A stretch of DNA of 47,183 bases from an uncultured Candidatus Saccharibacteria bacterium (GCA_964430335.1 CAYSEN010000002.1:1-47183), one strand, 5' to 3'; shown: positions 33,614 through 36,422, numbered from the stretch's first letter. Translations and numbers: made by a program. The notes: generated by a model not told the origin, from the sequence alone.

Positions 33614-34531
33614 ATGCTAGATTTCGCAAAAAAAACACTTTGGAATATTGGTTTTAAATTTGGCAGATTTATCACCATTCACACCAGACCAGCAAAAGTA
33701 GATGGTCTGCCTTTCATTGGATCAAAAAATCCAATCGATGAATCCTGCGCCATCATCATGCAGGGTCCGATTAAGCATGAGTATAATTTCACCTACGAGA
33801 CAGTGCGTTTCTACCTTCAACACTACCCTTCTGCCACAATTATCATTTCAACCTGGGAAGGCGAAGACACAAGCGCTATAGAAAGTCTCAAAGCTGAAAA
33901 AGTGAAAATTTTAAAATGCGCTAAACCGGTTCATCCAGGACCTTGTAATGTAAACATGCAAATTACAAATACTAAAGCCGGAATGGATGAAGCTGTCAGA
34001 CTTGGACTTAAATACTCTCTCAAAACTCGCGCCGACCAAAGAATGTACGGTATCAACTGTCTTGAATTCATGATTAACATGATCGAACAATTCCCTGTTT
34101 TGGGACCAACATCTCAGAACAAGAGAATTCTTGCGACTAACACCGGCACAAGTAAACACCGAAACTATCATTTTTCTGATTTGTTTATGTTTGGAACTGC
34201 GATCGACATGCAGACTTATTGGACTCCGGAAATAATTACTGACAAATCAATCAATCCTAGAGATTTTTTGGCAGAGGGATATTTGTTTACTCAGTTTTTG
34301 ACACACACAGGCTGGAAAATAAAAGACACGCTAGAAGATTTTATTGAAGCATTAGGCGAGAGATGTGTCGTTGTAGACAATGAAGACATCGATGTATACT
34401 GGCCGAAATATGCAGCACAGCAACGTGAATACCGATTGAAAAATTACGTAAGACCAGCTATCGAAATCACCTTCAAAATATGGATGAATGAAGGTTTGGT
34501 TCCCGCACTTAAAAAATATGGAAAAAAATAA
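33614..34531 (+). CDS. Conserved hypothetical glycan-locus protein (possibly WavE-like LPS synthesis family)
   Basis: 305 aa, soluble, tightly coupled to its neighbours. The WavE guess comes only from context and a faint recollection of the IIMQGPI...IIISTWE pattern. Confidence 0.3.
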   Translation: MLDFAKKTLWNIGFKFGRFITIHTRPAKVDGLPFIGSKNPIDESCAIIMQGPIKHEYNFTYETVRFYLQHYPSATIIISTWEGEDTSAIESLKAEKVKILKCAKPVHPGPCNVNMQITNTKAGMDEAVRLGLKYSLKTRADQRMYGINCLEFMINMIEQFPVLGPTSQNKRILATNTGTSKHRNYHFSDLFMFGTAIDMQTYWTPEIITDKSINPRDFLAEGYLFTQFLTHTGWKIKDTLEDFIEALGERCVVVDNEDIDVYWPKYAAQQREYRLKNYVRPAIEITFKIWMNEGLVPALKKYGKK

Positions 34532-36422
34532 AAAACAAAGAGTGGTTCAAATCGGTAAAAGATTTGTGGGTGATGGACACCCAGCTTTTATTATTGCTGA
34601 GGCCGGAATCAACCATAACGGCAAAATTGAGCTCGCTAGGAAACTTATAGATATTGCTGTTGAAGCTAAGGCCGATGCGGTCAAATTTCAAATGAGAGAT
34701 TTCAAGACTCTCTACACAGACACCGCTTTTAACAACACTAAAAACGAAGACATCGCTTCTCAATATTTATTATCGCTAATTCGCGAGTCTACTTTGAGTG
34801 AGAAAAATTTTACAGAACTTGCAAAATATGCCGAGAAGAAAGGTATCATGTTTCTATGTACTCCATGGGACAAAACTAGCGTGGATGCGTTAGAAAAACT
34901 AAACGTGCCAGCATACAAATTGGCATCAGCAGATTTAGTGAATCTAGAACTTATAGAATACATCGCTTCGAAAAAGAAACCCTTGATCATATCGACTGGA
35001 ATGTCGACTCTTGAGGAAATTGAAAATACCGTAAAGCATCTAAATAAAATTGGCGCTCAATATGTAATTCTCCACTGCAACAGCGCCTACCCTGCTGCTC
35101 CTAAAGATATAAATTTGAAATTCATGAAAACTCTTGAGGAGAAGTTTGACGCCATTGTTGGATACTCCGGACACGAACTAGGTCTCGCTATCAGTCTCGC
35201 TGCTGCAACCCTTGGAGCCAAAGTAATCGAAAGACATATCACAATCGATCGAACCATGACTGGTCCTGATCACGCTATTAGTCTTGAACCTACAGGTATC
35301 ATAAAATTGGTTCGCGACATTCGAAGAATTGAGGAAGCTATGCAAAGTGACAAAAAAATCGTCACTGCTGGAGAATTTATCAATAGAAAAATTTTGGGTA
35401 AAAGTCTCGTAGCAACAAGAGACATTAAAACTGGAGAAAAGATTACCAAAGAAATGGTAACCGCGAAAAGCCCTTCCAAAGGACTTTCTCCTCAGAAAAT
35501 TTACGATTTAGTTGGCCGAACATCCACCCGCGATATCAAAAAAGATGGCTATTTTACCGAAGAGGATTTGGGCAAGAAAAAAGAAGGGAGAAATTTCTCC
35601 TCAGATAAAAAATGGGGTCTTATCGTACGACCTCACGATTTCGAGGAAATGATTGAAGGACTTAATCCTACTTTTGCTGAATTTCATTTCAGTTCACATG
35701 ACCTAAATCACCCGCTTACTTTCAAGGATCATCCTGAACTTGAACTCGTTGCACACGCACCAGAACTTTGGGGCGATGAGCTTTTGGACTTTTGTTCAGA
35801 CGACACATCGGTTGTAAATTCATCTATAAAAAGAATAAATGACTTCCTTAATAAAGTGCGTGAAATGTCTAAGCATTTCAAAAAAAGTGATAAGACAAAA
35901 GTAGTTTTACACCCAGGAGGAATGAGTTACGAACAGTTCGTCACCGAATCTGAGCGCAAAAAAATGTACGCTCGTTTGGCCAAAGCACTCAAAAAACTAA
36001 ACCTAACAGGTATCGAATTACTTCTAGAAAACCTGCCTCCCTTCCCTTGGTATAAAGGTGGACAGTGGTTTTCAAACACCTTTATGGATGCAGAGGAGAT
36101 TTTTGAGTTTGCCAAAAAAGAAGGTTACTCACTCTGTTACGACAGTAGTCATGCACAACTATACTGTTCGTTTGCCAAAAAAGATCCGATTGAATTTTTC
36201 AAAACCATAAAACCTCTTGTAAAACACGTTCATGTTTCCGACGGAGTAGGTGTAGACGGTGAAGGTGTGCAGATTGGCGAAGGTGACGTGGCATGGGACA
36301 AACTAATGCCAGAAATCATAAAATCTAAGGTCACGATGACACCAGAAATCTGGATGGGTCATCAATATCAGGGCGAAGGTTTTCTAAAGGCACTTACTAA
36401 ACTAAAAGAGTTTGGACTATAA
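34518..36422 (+). CDS. Fusion protein: NeuB-type nonulosonate (sialic-acid-like) synthase, SAF domain and a C-terminal xylose-isomerase-like TIM barrel
   Basis: The NeuB hallmark is FIIAEAGINHNGKIELARKLIDIAVEAKADAVKFQ. The SAF region is LVATRDIKTGEKITKEMVTAKSPSKGLSP. From about nt 35620 the sequence is TIM-barrel (AP_endonuc_2)-like: VVLHPGG, LLLENLPP, DSSHAQLY, HVHVSDG. The ATG at 34518 is preferred, giving a 14-nt overlap with the upstream gene. Confidence 0.75.
   Translation: MEKNKKQRVVQIGKRFVGDGHPAFIIAEAGINHNGKIELARKLIDIAVEAKADAVKFQMRDFKTLYTDTAFNNTKNEDIASQYLLSLIRESTLSEKNFTELAKYAEKKGIMFLCTPWDKTSVDALEKLNVPAYKLASADLVNLELIEYIASKKKPLIISTGMSTLEEIENTVKHLNKIGAQYVILHCNSAYPAAPKDINLKFMKTLEEKFDAIVGYSGHELGLAISLAAATLGAKVIERHITIDRTMTGPDHAISLEPTGIIKLVRDIRRIEEAMQSDKKIVTAGEFINRKILGKSLVATRDIKTGEKITKEMVTAKSPSKGLSPQKIYDLVGRTSTRDIKKDGYFTEEDLGKKKEGRNFSSDKKWGLIVRPHDFEEMIEGLNPTFAEFHFSSHDLNHPLTFKDHPELELVAHAPELWGDELLDFCSDDTSVVNSSIKRINDFLNKVREMSKHFKKSDKTKVVLHPGGMSYEQFVTESERKKMYARLAKALKKLNLTGIELLLENLPPFPWYKGGQWFSNTFMDAEEIFEFAKKEGYSLCYDSSHAQLYCSFAKKDPIEFFKTIKPLVKHVHVSDGVGVDGEGVQIGEGDVAWDKLMPEIIKSKVTMTPEIWMGHQYQGEGFLKALTKLKEFGL

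What the first reader, a model, noticed from the sequence alone, without database searches (positions are those of the whole stretch)
34518..36422. NeuB-type nonulosonate synthase fused to a xylose-isomerase-like TIM barrel
Seen: a canonical NeuB N-terminus (IIAEAGINHNG...AVKFQ) and a SAF domain are followed in the same frame by about 260 aa carrying sugar-phosphate isomerase/epimerase (AP_endonuc_2) style motifs: VVLHPGG, LLLENLPP, DSSHAQLY, HVHVSDG.

Established: NeuB/PseI/LegI enzymes are normally about 340-350 aa and stop after the SAF domain. The aldose substrate is supplied by separate enzymes such as NeuC or PseB-H.

Inference: no NeuC, aminotransferase or PseB/LegB-type dehydratase is visible in this window. 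The fused TIM barrel may therefore generate or isomerise the sugar that is condensed with PEP, which would give a non-canonical (possibly KDN-like or novel) nonulosonate route. A CMP-synthetase-like gene (20140-20808) and a DUF115/Maf-like candidate transferase (36433-37302) would complete the pathway.
Basis: partly seen in the sequence, partly recalled or inferred. Interest (0 to 1): 0.7.

Follow-up and report, generated by a model that had tools for sequence, protein, structure and literature searches.

The report
NeuB sugar-acid synthase fused to metallo-TIM domain
This gene really does fuse a sialic-acid-type synthase to a second, metal-binding enzyme domain; the fusion is widespread but unstudied, and comparative genomics suggests the extra domain removes a phosphate from the product rather than preparing the sugar substrate.

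Summary
ORF 34518-36422 (+) encodes a 634-aa NeuB + SAF + xylose-isomerase-like TIM (AP_endonuc_2) protein with an intact NeuB catalytic set.

It is not a one-off. All 120 listed homologue clusters share the architecture, across Patescibacteria, Chloroflexi, Proteobacteria, Firmicutes and Archaea. Variants include CBS-NeuB-SAF-TIM and split NeuB | TIM gene pairs. The TIM subfamily has 296 clusters and is essentially a dedicated NeuB partner.

- The domain's closest solved relative is MJ1311. It keeps 7 of 9 endonuclease IV metal ligands, including two His that UlaE lacks at the aligned positions.
- A KdsC-type HAD phosphatase accompanies 26 of 39 sister TIM-less NeuB loci but only 2 of 36 TIM-linked loci.
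- Orthologous Chloroflexi operons differ only in carrying CTP_transf_3·HAD + NeuB versus CTP_transf_3 + NeuB·SAF·TIM.
- One subclade has a kinase directly upstream.

Best model (about 0.45): a bifunctional ulosonate-phosphate synthase/phosphatase feeding a CMP-transferase and an MptE-like transferase. The biochemistry is untested. Fold and profile comparisons cannot exclude an epimerase or isomerase.

Verdict: a new variant of a known kind, of moderate interest.

The parts
34518..36422 (+). Fusion gene, 634 aa: NeuB-SAF-TIM. An alternative upstream ATG at 34488 would give 644 aa.
   Evidence: ORF; Pfam domains; 634-aa homologue at 99% identity.
34644..35354 (+). NeuB (PEP:aldose condensing) TIM-barrel domain, residues 43-279.
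   Evidence: Pfam PF03102 E 4.5e-86. PDB NeuB/SiaC hit 1e-54 with E25, K53, Q55, K129, H215, E234, H236 and D247 equivalents conserved. Foldseek TM 0.86 to 1xuu.
35403..35570 (+). SAF (antifreeze-like) domain, residues 296-351. NmNeuB Arg314 is replaced by Ser318, within a family-specific KSPxKGLSPQ motif.
   Evidence: Pfam PF08666. In the alignment to the R314A and R314K mutant chains 4ipi and 4ipj, the mutated position aligns with S318. A1 consensus.
35571..35612 (+). Short Lys/Gly-rich linker, residues 352-365.
   Evidence: No secondary structure in this stretch of the AF2 model.
35613..36419 (+). Xylose-isomerase-like / MJ1311-like metallo-TIM domain, residues 366-634. (Near-)invariant residues: H413, E416, H465, E504, D542, H545, H572, D575, D580, E582, E610.
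   Evidence: Pfam PF01261. Family alignments A1 and A2. Profile against PDB: MJ1311 1.7e-15, EndoIV 7e-6. AF2 pLDDT 93.6. Foldseek. hhalign against Nfo and UlaE.
36433..37302 (+). MptE-like (DUF115/Maf-type) candidate CMP-ulosonate transferase, immediately downstream.
   Evidence: Pfam PF01973, 35.8 bits. The same module is present in Patescibacteria relatives L091 and L092 and in the Orenia flagellin island.
20140..20853 (-). CMP-ulosonate synthetase candidate (CTP_transf_3). It lies 13.7 kb away here, but is adjacent to the fusion in most relatives.
   Evidence: Pfam E 6.3e-28. Best NCBIfam hit is PseF, 130.6 bits, below the 205.7 cutoff. CTP_transf_3 is present in 28 of 36 TIM-linked loci, within 1.5 kb in 20.
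37302..39828 (+). Two SAM methyltransferase genes (37302-38039 and 38044-39828) that travel with the fusion and the MptE-like gene in Patescibacteria.
   Evidence: Pfam; context in L091 and L092.
31947..34531 (+). Upstream co-oriented genes: NTP_transferase (31947-32702), GDPD phosphodiesterase (32704-33612) and WavE (33614-34531).
   Evidence: Pfam. The same NTP_transferase-GDPD-WavE genes lie upstream of the fusion in L091, with further genes in between.
24304..26392 (+). Wzm/Wzt ABC exporter, with a Wzt_C carbohydrate-binding domain on Wzt, for the glycan that probably carries the ulosonate.
   Evidence: Pfam ABC2_membrane, ABC_tran and Wzt_C; the same arrangement in L092.
28481..29134 (+). 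HAD_2 (beta-PGM/PGP-type) hydrolase. This is a caveat: it could be an alternative phosphatase in this particular window.
   Evidence: Pfam and NCBIfam. It is not KdsC-type and is not conserved next to the fusion in L091 or L092.

Best explanation
The gene encodes a bifunctional enzyme of a short CMP-ulosonic-acid pathway. Step 1 is inferred from homology plus intact catalytic residues: the NeuB domain condenses PEP with an aldose that is not ManNAc, most likely a sugar phosphate such as a hexose-6-phosphate, giving a 3-deoxy-2-ulosonate phosphate (KDN-9-P-like). Step 2 is inferred from comparative genomics and the metal-site pattern: the C-terminal MJ1311/endonuclease-IV-like metallo-TIM domain hydrolyses that phosphate ester. 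It would thus do the job that a KdsC-type HAD phosphatase does in sister pathways. Step 3 is inferred from context: the free ulosonate is activated by the CTP_transf_3 enzyme (20140-20853), transferred by the MptE-like protein (36433-37302) and possibly methylated, onto a fucose-containing glycan exported by Wzm/Wzt. Fusing the two domains would couple synthesis and dephosphorylation.
For: (1) The NeuB catalytic and metal residues are conserved, while the N-acetyl-recognising Arg314 is Ser. The NeuB and PseI equivalog cutoffs are both missed. (2) The TIM family profile hits MJ1311 (1.7e-15) and then endonuclease IV chains (7e-6 to 2e-3), ahead of sugar isomerase and UlaE. (3) H413, H465, E504, D542, H545, H572 and E610 align with Nfo-type ligands H69, H109, E145, D179, H182, H216 and E261. 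UlaE has no His at the positions aligned with the first two. (4) Superfamily members are known to act as small-molecule phosphodiesterases, for example CbiR (PMC7733943). CbiR is also the top, though weak, NCBIfam C-domain hit. (5) The neighbourhood census finds a KdsC-type HAD domain in 26 of 39 TIM-less sister loci, mostly right after NeuB or fused to the CMP-transferase. It finds one in only 2 of 36 TIM-linked loci, both more than 4.7 kb away. (6) Orthologous, syntenic Anaerolineales operons differ in exactly this respect. L011 is SDR-CTP_transf_3-NeuB.SAF.TIM-CapS. L076 and L069 are SDR-CTP_transf_3.Hydrolase_3-NeuB-CapS. Identities between L011 and L076 are 59/58/42/48%. (7) A CBS-GHMP kinase lies immediately upstream of the fusion in 7 proteobacterial and Flavobacteriia loci, consistent with a phosphorylated substrate. 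(8) Minimal cassettes contain only CTP_transf_3 + fusion + a transferase, for example in the Orenia flagellin island and in Chloroflexi. This equals the three activities of the published Man-6-P -> Kdn-9-P -> Kdn -> CMP-Kdn route (PMC6200933). (9) TIM is an obligate partner. All 36 TIM-clade NeuBs have it, fused or adjacent, and the TIM subfamily is almost always fused to NeuB.
Against: There is no biochemistry for any member, and MJ1311 itself has no known function. Foldseek and hhalign score ketose 3-epimerases and UlaE nearly as well as endonuclease IV. The Nfo D229/H231 loop of the third metal site is absent; only a shifted D580-x-E582 pair is present. I know of no sugar-phosphate monoesterase in this superfamily. 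TIM-linked NeuBs form one clade, so the HAD/TIM exclusivity may reflect one ancient event. That event could equally have been a switch to a non-phosphorylated substrate. The Fisher p of 1.7e-8 therefore overstates independence. This window also has a HAD_2 gene (28481-29134) and an IMPase-family gene (29966-30892) that could act as the phosphatase. Residues shared between TIM-clade and HAD-linked NeuBs are also mostly present in the HAD-less relatives.
Confidence: 0.45

Rival explanations
1. The TIM domain is a sugar or sugar-phosphate isomerase or epimerase that makes the aldose, possibly delivered in open-chain form, which the NeuB domain then condenses with PEP.
For: Pfam assigns the domain to the xylose-isomerase-like TIM barrel family. 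Foldseek's top hits include many ketose 3-epimerases and UlaE at TM 0.6-0.7. hhalign to UlaE gives probability 85%, E 5.9e-6. The E-D-H-E ligand set typical of epimerases is present. NeuC, PseB and similar genes are absent from many loci. HAD/TIM exclusivity would also arise if the TIM clade had switched to an unphosphorylated substrate. The TIM+CBS architecture loosely recalls SIS+CBS arabinose-5-P isomerases (the comparison is from my own knowledge).
Against: By sequence profile the family is closer to MJ1311 and EndoIV than to isomerases. The extra invariant His residues H413 and H465 match Nfo ligands, and UlaE has no His at the aligned positions. Otherwise orthologous operons swap TIM for a HAD phosphatase, not for an isomerase. 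If the product were phosphorylated, no phosphatase would remain in 34 of 36 loci. The upstream kinase would be unexplained if the substrate is unphosphorylated. Algibacillus carries a separate canonical AP_endonuc_2 gene right after the fusion, which could be the isomerase there.
Confidence: 0.2
2. The TIM domain is a phosphoesterase acting before NeuB. It would release the free reducing sugar from an NDP-sugar or a sugar-1-phosphate, as a functional analogue of PseG, LegG or NeuC.
For: The metal site is EndoIV/MJ1311-like. Several TIM-linked loci carry NDP-sugar tailoring genes such as NTP_transferase, 4,6-dehydratase-type SDRs, DegT and GFO_IDH, but no Epimerase_2 or PseG. GHMP sugar kinases usually phosphorylate C1 (my own knowledge), which would feed such a route. 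This window has an NTP_transferase two genes upstream.
Against: The minimal Chloroflexi and Orenia cassettes contain no NDP-sugar enzymes. The domain that replaces TIM in orthologous operons is a KdsC-type phosphatase fused to the CMP-transferase, which is a downstream enzyme. L004 has Epimerase_2 genes as well as the fusion.
Confidence: 0.12
3. The TIM domain modifies the ulosonate product, for example by C3 deprotonation followed by dehydration or epimerisation as in IolE or dehydroshikimate dehydratase. Alternatively it is a non-catalytic or regulatory module.
For: The superfamily includes dehydratases, such as 2-keto-myo-inositol dehydratase listed in PMC7733943. An SDR is a frequent neighbour, present in 21 of 36 loci, and could reduce an enone.
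Against: The SDR is equally present in the HAD-type orthologous operon, so it is not tied to TIM. Strict conservation of about 11 His/Asp/Glu residues argues for catalysis. This model also leaves the missing phosphatase unexplained.
Confidence: 0.1
4. The fusion is an artefact: a frameshift or misassembly has joined two adjacent genes.
For: Split NeuB | TIM gene pairs do exist in other genomes.
Against: The ORF is continuous. All 120 listed independent clusters have the same fused architecture at 46-99% identity. At least 76 of the 150 best TIM-family representatives are full-length fusions. The AF2 model is confident through the linker.
Confidence: 0.01

Closest known systems
Bacteroides thetaiotaomicron / Prymnesium parvum / human phosphorylated route: Kdn-9-P (or Neu5Ac-9-P) synthase + HAD phosphatase + CMP-synthetase (BT1714/BT1713 and partner; PMC6200933)
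   Same: A NeuB-family synthase and a CTP_transf_3 activating enzyme form a short three-activity pathway that needs no NeuC/PseB-type enzymes. The nearest TIM-less relatives of this NeuB sit in exactly such NeuB + KdsC-HAD + CMP-transferase cassettes.
   Different: No KdsC-type HAD accompanies the fusion. An unrelated metallo-TIM domain is fused to the synthase instead. Neither the substrate nor the product has been determined.
Neisseria meningitidis NeuB (PDB 1XUU/1XUZ) and C. jejuni PseI (8H2C)
   Same: The NeuB TIM barrel plus SAF domain architecture is shared (Foldseek TM 0.86). The metal ligands and the PEP-binding and catalytic residues are conserved.
   Different: Identity is only about 32%. 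Arg314 becomes Ser, Asn184 becomes Ser, and Phe288 becomes Ile. The scores fall below the NCBIfam NeuB and PseI equivalog cutoffs. There is an extra 270-aa C-terminal domain.
MJ1311 of Methanocaldococcus jannaschii (PDB 3WQO, 'D-tagatose 3-epimerase-like protein'; listed as the archaeal EndoIV homologue in PMC2770678)
   Same: It is the closest solved relative of the C-domain by both sequence profile (1.7e-15) and Foldseek (top hit). It shares the HAPE, HPGG, LEN, DxxH, HxHxxD and IGEG motifs.
   Different: MJ1311 is standalone, is not linked to NeuB, and has no known function. It has D-D-E-H where this family has D-G-E-G, so the last His ligand is Gly here.
Endonuclease IV (E. coli Nfo, M. 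tuberculosis End)
   Same: The TIM fold is shared, and 7 of the 9 trinuclear-site ligand positions are conserved. Nfo catalyses metal-dependent phosphoester hydrolysis.
   Different: The D229/H231 loop is absent. The family-specific ENLPPFPWYxGGQW loop is not found in Nfo. There is no evidence for DNA binding. Identity is 14-17%.
CbiR cobamide-remodelling phosphodiesterase (AP endonuclease 2 superfamily; PMC7733943)
   Same: It is a superfamily member that hydrolyses a small-molecule phosphodiester, with conserved His/Asp/Glu metal ligands. It is the top NCBIfam hit for the C-domain.
   Different: The match is very weak (24.8 bits against a cutoff of 105), and both the substrate class and the genomic context differ.
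Ketose 3-epimerases / UlaE (L-ribulose-5-P 3-epimerase in the RefSeq annotation, L-xylulose-5-P 3-epimerase in the PDB title)
   Same: The fold and the E-D-H-E metal site are shared (Foldseek TM 0.6-0.7; hhalign probability 85%).
   Different: UlaE has no His at the positions aligned with H413 and H465. Identity is 12-15%.

Membership tests
NeuB / sialic-acid (nonulosonate) synthase family (PF03102) | NeuB TIM-barrel domain detectable above the curated threshold | tested here: met
   PF03102 scores 288.7 bits against a cutoff of 22.1. PDB 1xuu hit at 2.5e-54. Foldseek TM 0.86.
NeuB / sialic-acid (nonulosonate) synthase family (PF03102) | Metal ligands His215/His236 and catalytic or PEP-binding residues Glu25, Lys53, Gln55, Lys129, Ser213, Glu234, Asp247 (NmNeuB numbering; the residue roles are from my own knowledge of Gunawan et al. 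2005) | tested here: met
   The alignment maps these to H219, H240, E28, K56, Q58, K134, S217, E238 and D251. All of them are invariant in A1.
NeuB / sialic-acid (nonulosonate) synthase family (PF03102) | C-terminal SAF/antifreeze-like domain | tested here: met
   PF08666 scores 43.1 bits against a cutoff of 21.
N-acetylneuraminate synthase sensu stricto (TIGR03569) / pseudaminate synthase (TIGR03586) | Score above the NCBIfam equivalog cutoff | tested here: not met
   356.2 against 399.65 for NeuB_NnaB, and 259.1 against 340.25 for PseI.
N-acetylneuraminate synthase sensu stricto (TIGR03569) / pseudaminate synthase (TIGR03586) | Arg314 of the SAF domain, essential in NmNeuB and in contact with the N-acetyl group | tested here: not met
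   The position mutated in 4ipi (R314A) and 4ipj (R314K) aligns with Ser318. The family consensus is KSPAKGLSPQ.
Xylose-isomerase-like TIM barrel / AP endonuclease 2 superfamily (PF01261) | Pfam match above the gathering score, and a TIM-barrel fold | tested here: met
   71.2 bits against 31.1. AF2 pLDDT 93.6. Foldseek hits are to superfamily members, among them MbnB.
Xylose-isomerase-like TIM barrel / AP endonuclease 2 superfamily (PF01261) | Conserved Glu-Asp-His-Glu metal ligands on the barrel strands | tested here: met
   E504, D542, H572 and E610 are invariant or nearly invariant and align to the Mtb EndoIV and UlaE ligand positions. The Nfo alignment covers the first three.
Endonuclease IV (Nfo) family | All nine trinuclear-zinc ligands: H69, H109, E145, D179, H182, H216, D229, H231, E261 (list from my own knowledge of Hosfield et al. 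1999) | tested here: not met
   Seven align: H413, H465, E504, D542, H545, H572 and E610. The D229-x-H231 loop falls in a gap, and the family instead has D580-G-E582-G.
Endonuclease IV (Nfo) family | DNA-binding groove and AP-site endonuclease activity | not testable with these tools
The genomic context is glycan biosynthesis, not DNA repair.
   The E-D-H-E set is present and fold similarity is equal to that of EndoIV. However, extra invariant His residues, for which UlaE has no aligned His, are also present. Activity cannot be tested here.
KDN-type phosphorylated ulosonate pathway (synthase + KdsC-type HAD phosphatase + CMP-synthetase) | A NeuB-family synthase and a CTP_transf_3 enzyme in the same locus | tested here: met
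   The window has CTP_transf_3 at 20140-20853. It is present in 28 of 36 TIM-linked loci and within 1.5 kb of the core in 20.
KDN-type phosphorylated ulosonate pathway (synthase + KdsC-type HAD phosphatase + CMP-synthetase) | A KdsC-type (Hydrolase_3) HAD phosphatase | tested here: not met
   It is absent from the window and from 34 of 36 TIM-linked loci, but present in 26 of 39 sister loci. This is the basis for proposing that TIM replaces it.
KDN-type phosphorylated ulosonate pathway (synthase + KdsC-type HAD phosphatase + CMP-synthetase) | Use of a sugar-6-phosphate (Man-6-P) substrate | not testable with these tools
   This requires an enzyme assay.

The most novel reading that the evidence does not exclude
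The C-terminal domain founds a new functional class within the EndoIV/xylose-isomerase TIM superfamily: a metal-dependent sugar-acid phosphate phosphatase. This class would have non-orthologously displaced KdsC-type HAD phosphatases in CMP-ulosonate pathways across more than ten bacterial and archaeal phyla. The fused enzyme would make a Kdn-like, non-N-acetylated and possibly new ulosonic acid that decorates cell-surface glycans or flagellins, including those of CPR/Patescibacteria.
Probability: 0.35. Interest if true: 0.65.

Novelty: new variant of a known kind. Interest (0 to 1): 0.55.

Why it matters
NeuB-type synthases define the sialic acid, Kdn, legionaminic and pseudaminic acid pathways that shape microbial surfaces. 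Genome surveys currently predict the sugar from the accompanying NeuC/PseB/HAD genes. A large clade is invisible to that logic: 296 clusters at 50% identity, spanning Chloroflexi, Patescibacteria, Bradyrhizobium, Burkholderia, haloarchaea and Asgard archaea. It is simply annotated 'N-acetylneuraminate synthase family protein'.

If the TIM domain is the pathway phosphatase, several things follow:
- It would add a phosphomonoesterase function to a superfamily known for DNA repair and sugar isomerisation.
- It would offer a functional lead for the orphan MJ1311 structure.
- It would be one candidate type to test where a phosphorylated ulosonate route lacks a recognisable HAD phosphatase. That gap is explicitly noted for P. 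parvum in PMC6200933, although no link to algae is shown here.
- It would provide a compact two-gene cassette (fusion + CMP-transferase) for making activated ulosonates.

The hypothesis is directly testable with one recombinant protein.

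Tried and rejected
- Literature: searches for the architecture or for a bifunctional enzyme found nothing relevant. Terms tried were NeuB + xylose isomerase-like/fusion, AP_endonuc_2 + NeuB, nonulosonic acid + xylose isomerase, Kdn + NeuB + phosphatase + fused, and nonulosonic + Patescibacteria. 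The MJ1311 structure paper is not in the searchable library.
- Foldseek on the full-length model is dominated by the NeuB half. On the C-domain alone it cannot separate epimerases from EndoIV.
- hhalign of the family against Nfo and UlaE gives near-equal scores. Its C-terminal register against Nfo looks wrong, pairing PEIW with PDIW. Only the residue mapping was used, not the ranking.
- My first HAD census was invalid, because the second HMM iteration was contaminated by CTP_transf_3·HAD fusions. It was replaced by the clean first-iteration profile.
- A 1321-aa 'super-fusion' in L025, and over-long ORFs in other high-GC loci, were ORF-calling artefacts.
- The test for residues shared only by TIM-clade and HAD-linked NeuBs, as candidate phosphate binders, did not discriminate. 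R60, R245 and R269 are also common in the HAD-less relatives, and R60 was part of the retrieval pattern.
- No Rfam family or tRNA was found in the window.
- The frameshift/artefact explanation is rejected.

Full report
**Observation.** The window contains one continuous + strand ORF, 34488/34518..36422. The 634-aa form starting at 34518 matches a 634-aa metagenomic protein at 99% identity over its full length. Pfam finds NeuB (residues 43-279, E 4.5e-86), SAF (296-351) and AP_endonuc_2, the xylose-isomerase-like TIM barrel (404-613, E 1.5e-19, well above the gathering score). AlphaFold2 gives confident models for the whole protein (pLDDT 89.4) and for the C-domain alone (pLDDT 93.6, pTM 0.92).

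**The NeuB half.** It aligns with N. meningitidis NeuB over 340 residues (1e-54; Foldseek TM 0.86). Numbering was mapped through the 4ipi/4ipj chains, which are the R314A and R314K mutants.
- The metal ligands H215 and H236 are conserved.
- So are E25, K53, Q55, T110, K129, S132, S154, Y186, S213, E234 and D247.
- The conserved set corresponds to window residues E28, K56, Q58, T115, K134, S137, S159, Y191, S217, H219, E238, H240 and D251; of these, all but T115 are invariant across 25 diverse family members.
- In contrast, Arg314 is Ser318, Asn184 is Ser189 and Phe288 is Ile292. Arg314 is the SAF-domain residue mutated in those structures.
- The protein misses the NCBIfam equivalog cutoffs for both NeuB and PseI.

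It is therefore an active-looking PEP:aldose condensing enzyme whose aldose is probably not ManNAc.

**Distribution.**
- All 120 listed homologue clusters (46-99% identity) have NeuB+SAF+AP_endonuc_2. Three of them lack a precomputed SAF hit and one carries extra methyltransferase domains. They come from Patescibacteria (closest named relative: Parcubacteria GW2011_GWA2_47_16, 79%), Rokubacteria, Chloroflexi, Nitrospinota, Orenia marismortui, Nanoarchaeia and Helarchaeota.
- A scan of species-representative genomes adds Bradyrhizobium, Burkholderia pyrrocinia, Algibacillus, Natronococcus, Rhodobacterales, Flavobacteriaceae, Desulfobacterales and others.
- An exhaustive profile search with the C-domain finds 296 clusters at 50% identity with E <= 1e-30.
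- Among the best 150 representatives, 43 are CBS-NeuB-SAF-TIM (about 750 aa), 33 are NeuB-SAF-TIM, and 35 have partial N-terminal extensions. The 446-546-aa forms tested by Pfam were truncated fusions. A further 37 are TIM-only and 2 have a long C-terminal tail like the TIM-CBS proteins.
- In all four split cases examined, the TIM or TIM-CBS gene lies directly downstream of a standalone NeuB gene.

This TIM subfamily is thus a dedicated NeuB partner. The fusion is catalogued under names such as 'N-acetylneuraminate synthase family protein' (NCBI) and 'sialic acid synthase SpsE/sugar phosphate isomerase/epimerase' (JGI). I found no paper describing it.

**What the TIM domain resembles.**
- A profile of the family searched against PDB sequences hits MJ1311 (3WQO) at 1.7e-15. 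Endonuclease IV chains follow (5zhz at 7e-6; 8edd, 8axy and 1xp3 at about 1e-3), ahead of a putative sugar isomerase and UlaE.
- MJ1311 is listed as the M. jannaschii EndoIV homologue in PMC2770678. Its PDB title is 'D-tagatose 3-epimerase-like protein'.
- Foldseek confirms the fold but cannot discriminate. MJ1311, ketose 3-epimerases, UlaE and endonuclease IV all score TM 0.6-0.7.
- hhalign against E. coli Nfo and UlaE is likewise near-equal: probability 89.6 against 85.3.
- The residue mapping is more informative. The family's (near-)invariant H413 (HAPE), H465 (LHPGG), E504 (LEN), D542/H545 (DxSH), H572 (HxHxxD) and E610 (PEIW) align with EndoIV ligand positions H69, H109, E145, D179/H182, H216 and E261. 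UlaE has no His at the positions aligned with the first two.
- The Nfo D229-x-H231 loop is missing. It is replaced by a shorter D580-G-E582-G segment.

The site therefore looks at least binuclear and EndoIV/MJ1311-like, rather than a plain mononuclear epimerase site, but it is not a canonical Nfo site. The superfamily is known to include a small-molecule phosphodiesterase, CbiR (PMC7733943), which is also the top though weak NCBIfam C-domain hit.

**Comparative genomics, the main new evidence.** I compared the two genes on either side of 35 TIM-linked NeuB loci with those of 39 loci carrying the closest TIM-less NeuBs.
- TIM-linked loci: CTP_transf_3 15, short-chain dehydrogenase 15, GHMP kinase 7, Capsule_synth 7 member proteins, and no HAD family in the top 25.
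- TIM-less loci: Hydrolase_3 (KdsC-type HAD) 18, CTP_transf_3 15, Kdo-transferase family 6 member proteins.
- A clean local HMM found a KdsC-type HAD domain within +-8 kb in 26 of 39 TIM-less loci. In 22 of these it lay within about 120 nt of NeuB or overlapped the NeuB match region, either as a separate gene or fused to the adjacent CMP-transferase.
- Only 2 of 36 TIM-linked loci had one, and both were more than 4.7 kb away (Fisher p 1.7e-8).
- An NJ tree shows that all TIM-linked NeuB domains form one clade, sister to HAD-linked clades. The statistic therefore reflects essentially one ancient switch and should not be read as many independent events.

A second line of evidence comes from orthologous Anaerolineales operons.
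- L011 reads SDR(275) - CTP_transf_3(254) - NeuB.SAF.TIM(628) - CapS-like(540).
- L076 reads SDR(273) - CTP_transf_3.Hydrolase_3(408) - NeuB(301) - CapS-like(534).
- Identities between them are 59, 58, 42 and 48%. L069 shows the same CTP_transf_3.Hydrolase_3 and NeuB-only proteins by Pfam, and its SDR and CapS-like genes by the local HMMs; L085 appears similar by the local HMMs only.
- The pathway context is the same. Only the HAD domain and the SAF+TIM module are exchanged.

Two further observations fit. In seven proteobacterial and Flavobacteriia loci, a CBS-GHMP kinase sits immediately upstream of the fusion. Minimal cassettes, such as the Orenia flagellin-glycosylation island and the Chloroflexi operons, contain just CTP_transf_3, the fusion and a CMP-ulosonate-type transferase (Maf/MptE-like or KpsS/C-like).

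**Mechanistic reading.** The published phosphorylated route is Man-6-P + PEP -> Kdn-9-P -> Kdn -> CMP-Kdn. It uses a NeuB-type synthase, a HAD phosphatase and a CMP-synthetase. It operates in B. thetaiotaomicron, P. parvum and, for Neu5Ac, in humans, whereas many bacteria use unphosphorylated sugars (PMC6200933). The sister loci look like that route.

The most economical reading is that the TIM-clade enzymes also make an ulosonate phosphate, and that the fused EndoIV/MJ1311-like metallo-domain is the phosphatase. I give this about 0.45.
- Shown: the architecture, residue conservation, distribution, obligate NeuB-TIM pairing, HAD/TIM exclusivity and operon orthology.
- Inferred: the phosphorylated substrate, the phosphatase chemistry and the identity of the sugar.

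**Rivals.**
Fold data still allow it, and so does the possibility that the single switch was to an unphosphorylated substrate.
- Phosphoesterase that frees the aldose from an NDP-sugar or sugar-1-P, as a PseG/NeuC analogue: about 0.12.
- Product-modifying or regulatory roles: about 0.1.

Caveats specific to this window: a beta-PGM-type HAD_2 gene (28481-29134) and an IMPase-family gene (29966-30892) could supply phosphatase activity. Neither was seen among the genes near the fusion in the two Patescibacteria relatives examined.

**Window context.**
- Positions 1-20 kb are housekeeping: GatB, Obg, SecA, MurB and an O-antigen-ligase-TPR protein.
- From 20 to 46 kb lies a glycan locus. It contains the CMP-transferase (-), gmd, fcl-like and other SDRs, Wzm/Wzt with a Wzt_C domain, GT10/GT11 fucosyltransferase-family genes, GT2/GT4, several methyltransferases, NTP_transferase-GDPD-WavE, the fusion and the MptE-like gene.
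- Patescibacteria relatives keep the same module. L092 has Wzm-Wzt-...-CTP_transf_3-fusion-MT-MT-MptE-like. L091 has NTP_transferase-GDPD-WavE...-fusion-MT-MT-MptE-like.
- The CMP-transferase is NulO-type: its best hit is PseF, below the cutoff.

A plausible but untested role is a possibly methylated ulosonate residue on a fucose-containing, ABC-exported surface glycan.

**Verdict.** The finding is real. It points to a widespread, uncharacterised bifunctional enzyme family rather than a unique oddity. Relative to known systems this is a new variant of the NeuB-type, KDN-like CMP-ulosonate pathway, in which an unrelated metallo-TIM domain appears to replace the HAD phosphatase. Interest is moderate (0.55): it is directly testable with one recombinant protein, and it would assign function to a large protein family and give a lead for the orphan MJ1311 structure.

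Noticed in passing
window 29966-30892 (- strand); GC island at about 30000-30900: A sharp island of about 60% GC sits in a 38% GC window. It coincides exactly with a lone minus-strand ORF of the inositol-monophosphatase family, whose best NCBIfam hit is HisN at 41 bits, far below the cutoff. It looks like a single-gene horizontal acquisition inside the glycan locus. It is also a conceivable sugar-phosphate phosphatase.
   Followed up: partly
window 38044-39828 (+): This 594-aa methyltransferase has a C-terminal part containing an HGDLWRENIIID...DLID kinase-like motif. Pfam gives only a sub-threshold Fructosamin_kin hit (E 0.017). It could be a WbdD-like methyltransferase+kinase chain terminator working with the Wzt_C-bearing ABC exporter, but this is not established.
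   Followed up: partly
window 3726-4400 (+): An IS200-like Y1 transposase ORF lies next to housekeeping genes.
   Followed up: no
window 17603-20044 (-) and 24304-26392 (+): An O-antigen-ligase (Wzy_C)+TPR protein and a Wzm/Wzt(Wzt_C) exporter occur in what is, by closest homologues, a Patescibacteria/CPR genome. This is an O-antigen-like, ABC-dependent glycan system in a lineage without a known outer membrane. L092 has the same set.
   Followed up: partly
L009:1-549 (- strand; gene runs off the locus): A DegT/DnrJ/EryC1 aminotransferase (888-aa product) is interrupted by an intein, with Intein_splicing and LAGLIDADG domains. It lies in a split NeuB|TIM locus.
   Followed up: no
L026:9967-10800 (Algibacillus agarilyticus): A second, standalone canonical AP_endonuc_2 gene (full-length Pfam match, E 6.8e-23) lies directly downstream of the NeuB-SAF-TIM fusion, with a GHMP kinase upstream. 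This locus therefore has two different TIM-barrel enzymes.
   Followed up: no
P0211, P0225, P0247 (CBS-NeuB-SAF-TIM); L007:8001-9242 and L008:8001-9170 (TIM-CBS); L030:6649-8010 and L035:6610-7971 (CBS-GHMP kinase): A CBS domain moves between three different proteins of the pathway: the N-terminus of the fusion, the C-terminus of the split TIM, and the N-terminus of the upstream kinase. This suggests a mobile allosteric module, perhaps for feedback by a nucleotide sugar.
   Followed up: partly
L047-L052 (FCB-group / Fidelibacterota / Lentisphaeria loci): In these loci NeuB is followed by a KdsC-type HAD. Set B as a whole has six Kdo-transferase-family (Glycos_transf_N) neighbours, probably including the roughly 425-aa ORFs after the HAD here, although they were not mapped locus by locus. 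A NeuB-type synthase may feed WaaA-like transferases.
   Followed up: no
L005 and L006 (Chloroflexi): The fusion operon is embedded among ATP-sulfurylase/APS-kinase genes, plus multiple sulfotransferase genes in L005 and sulfatase-family genes in L006. This hints at a sulfated ulosonate-containing polymer.
   Followed up: no
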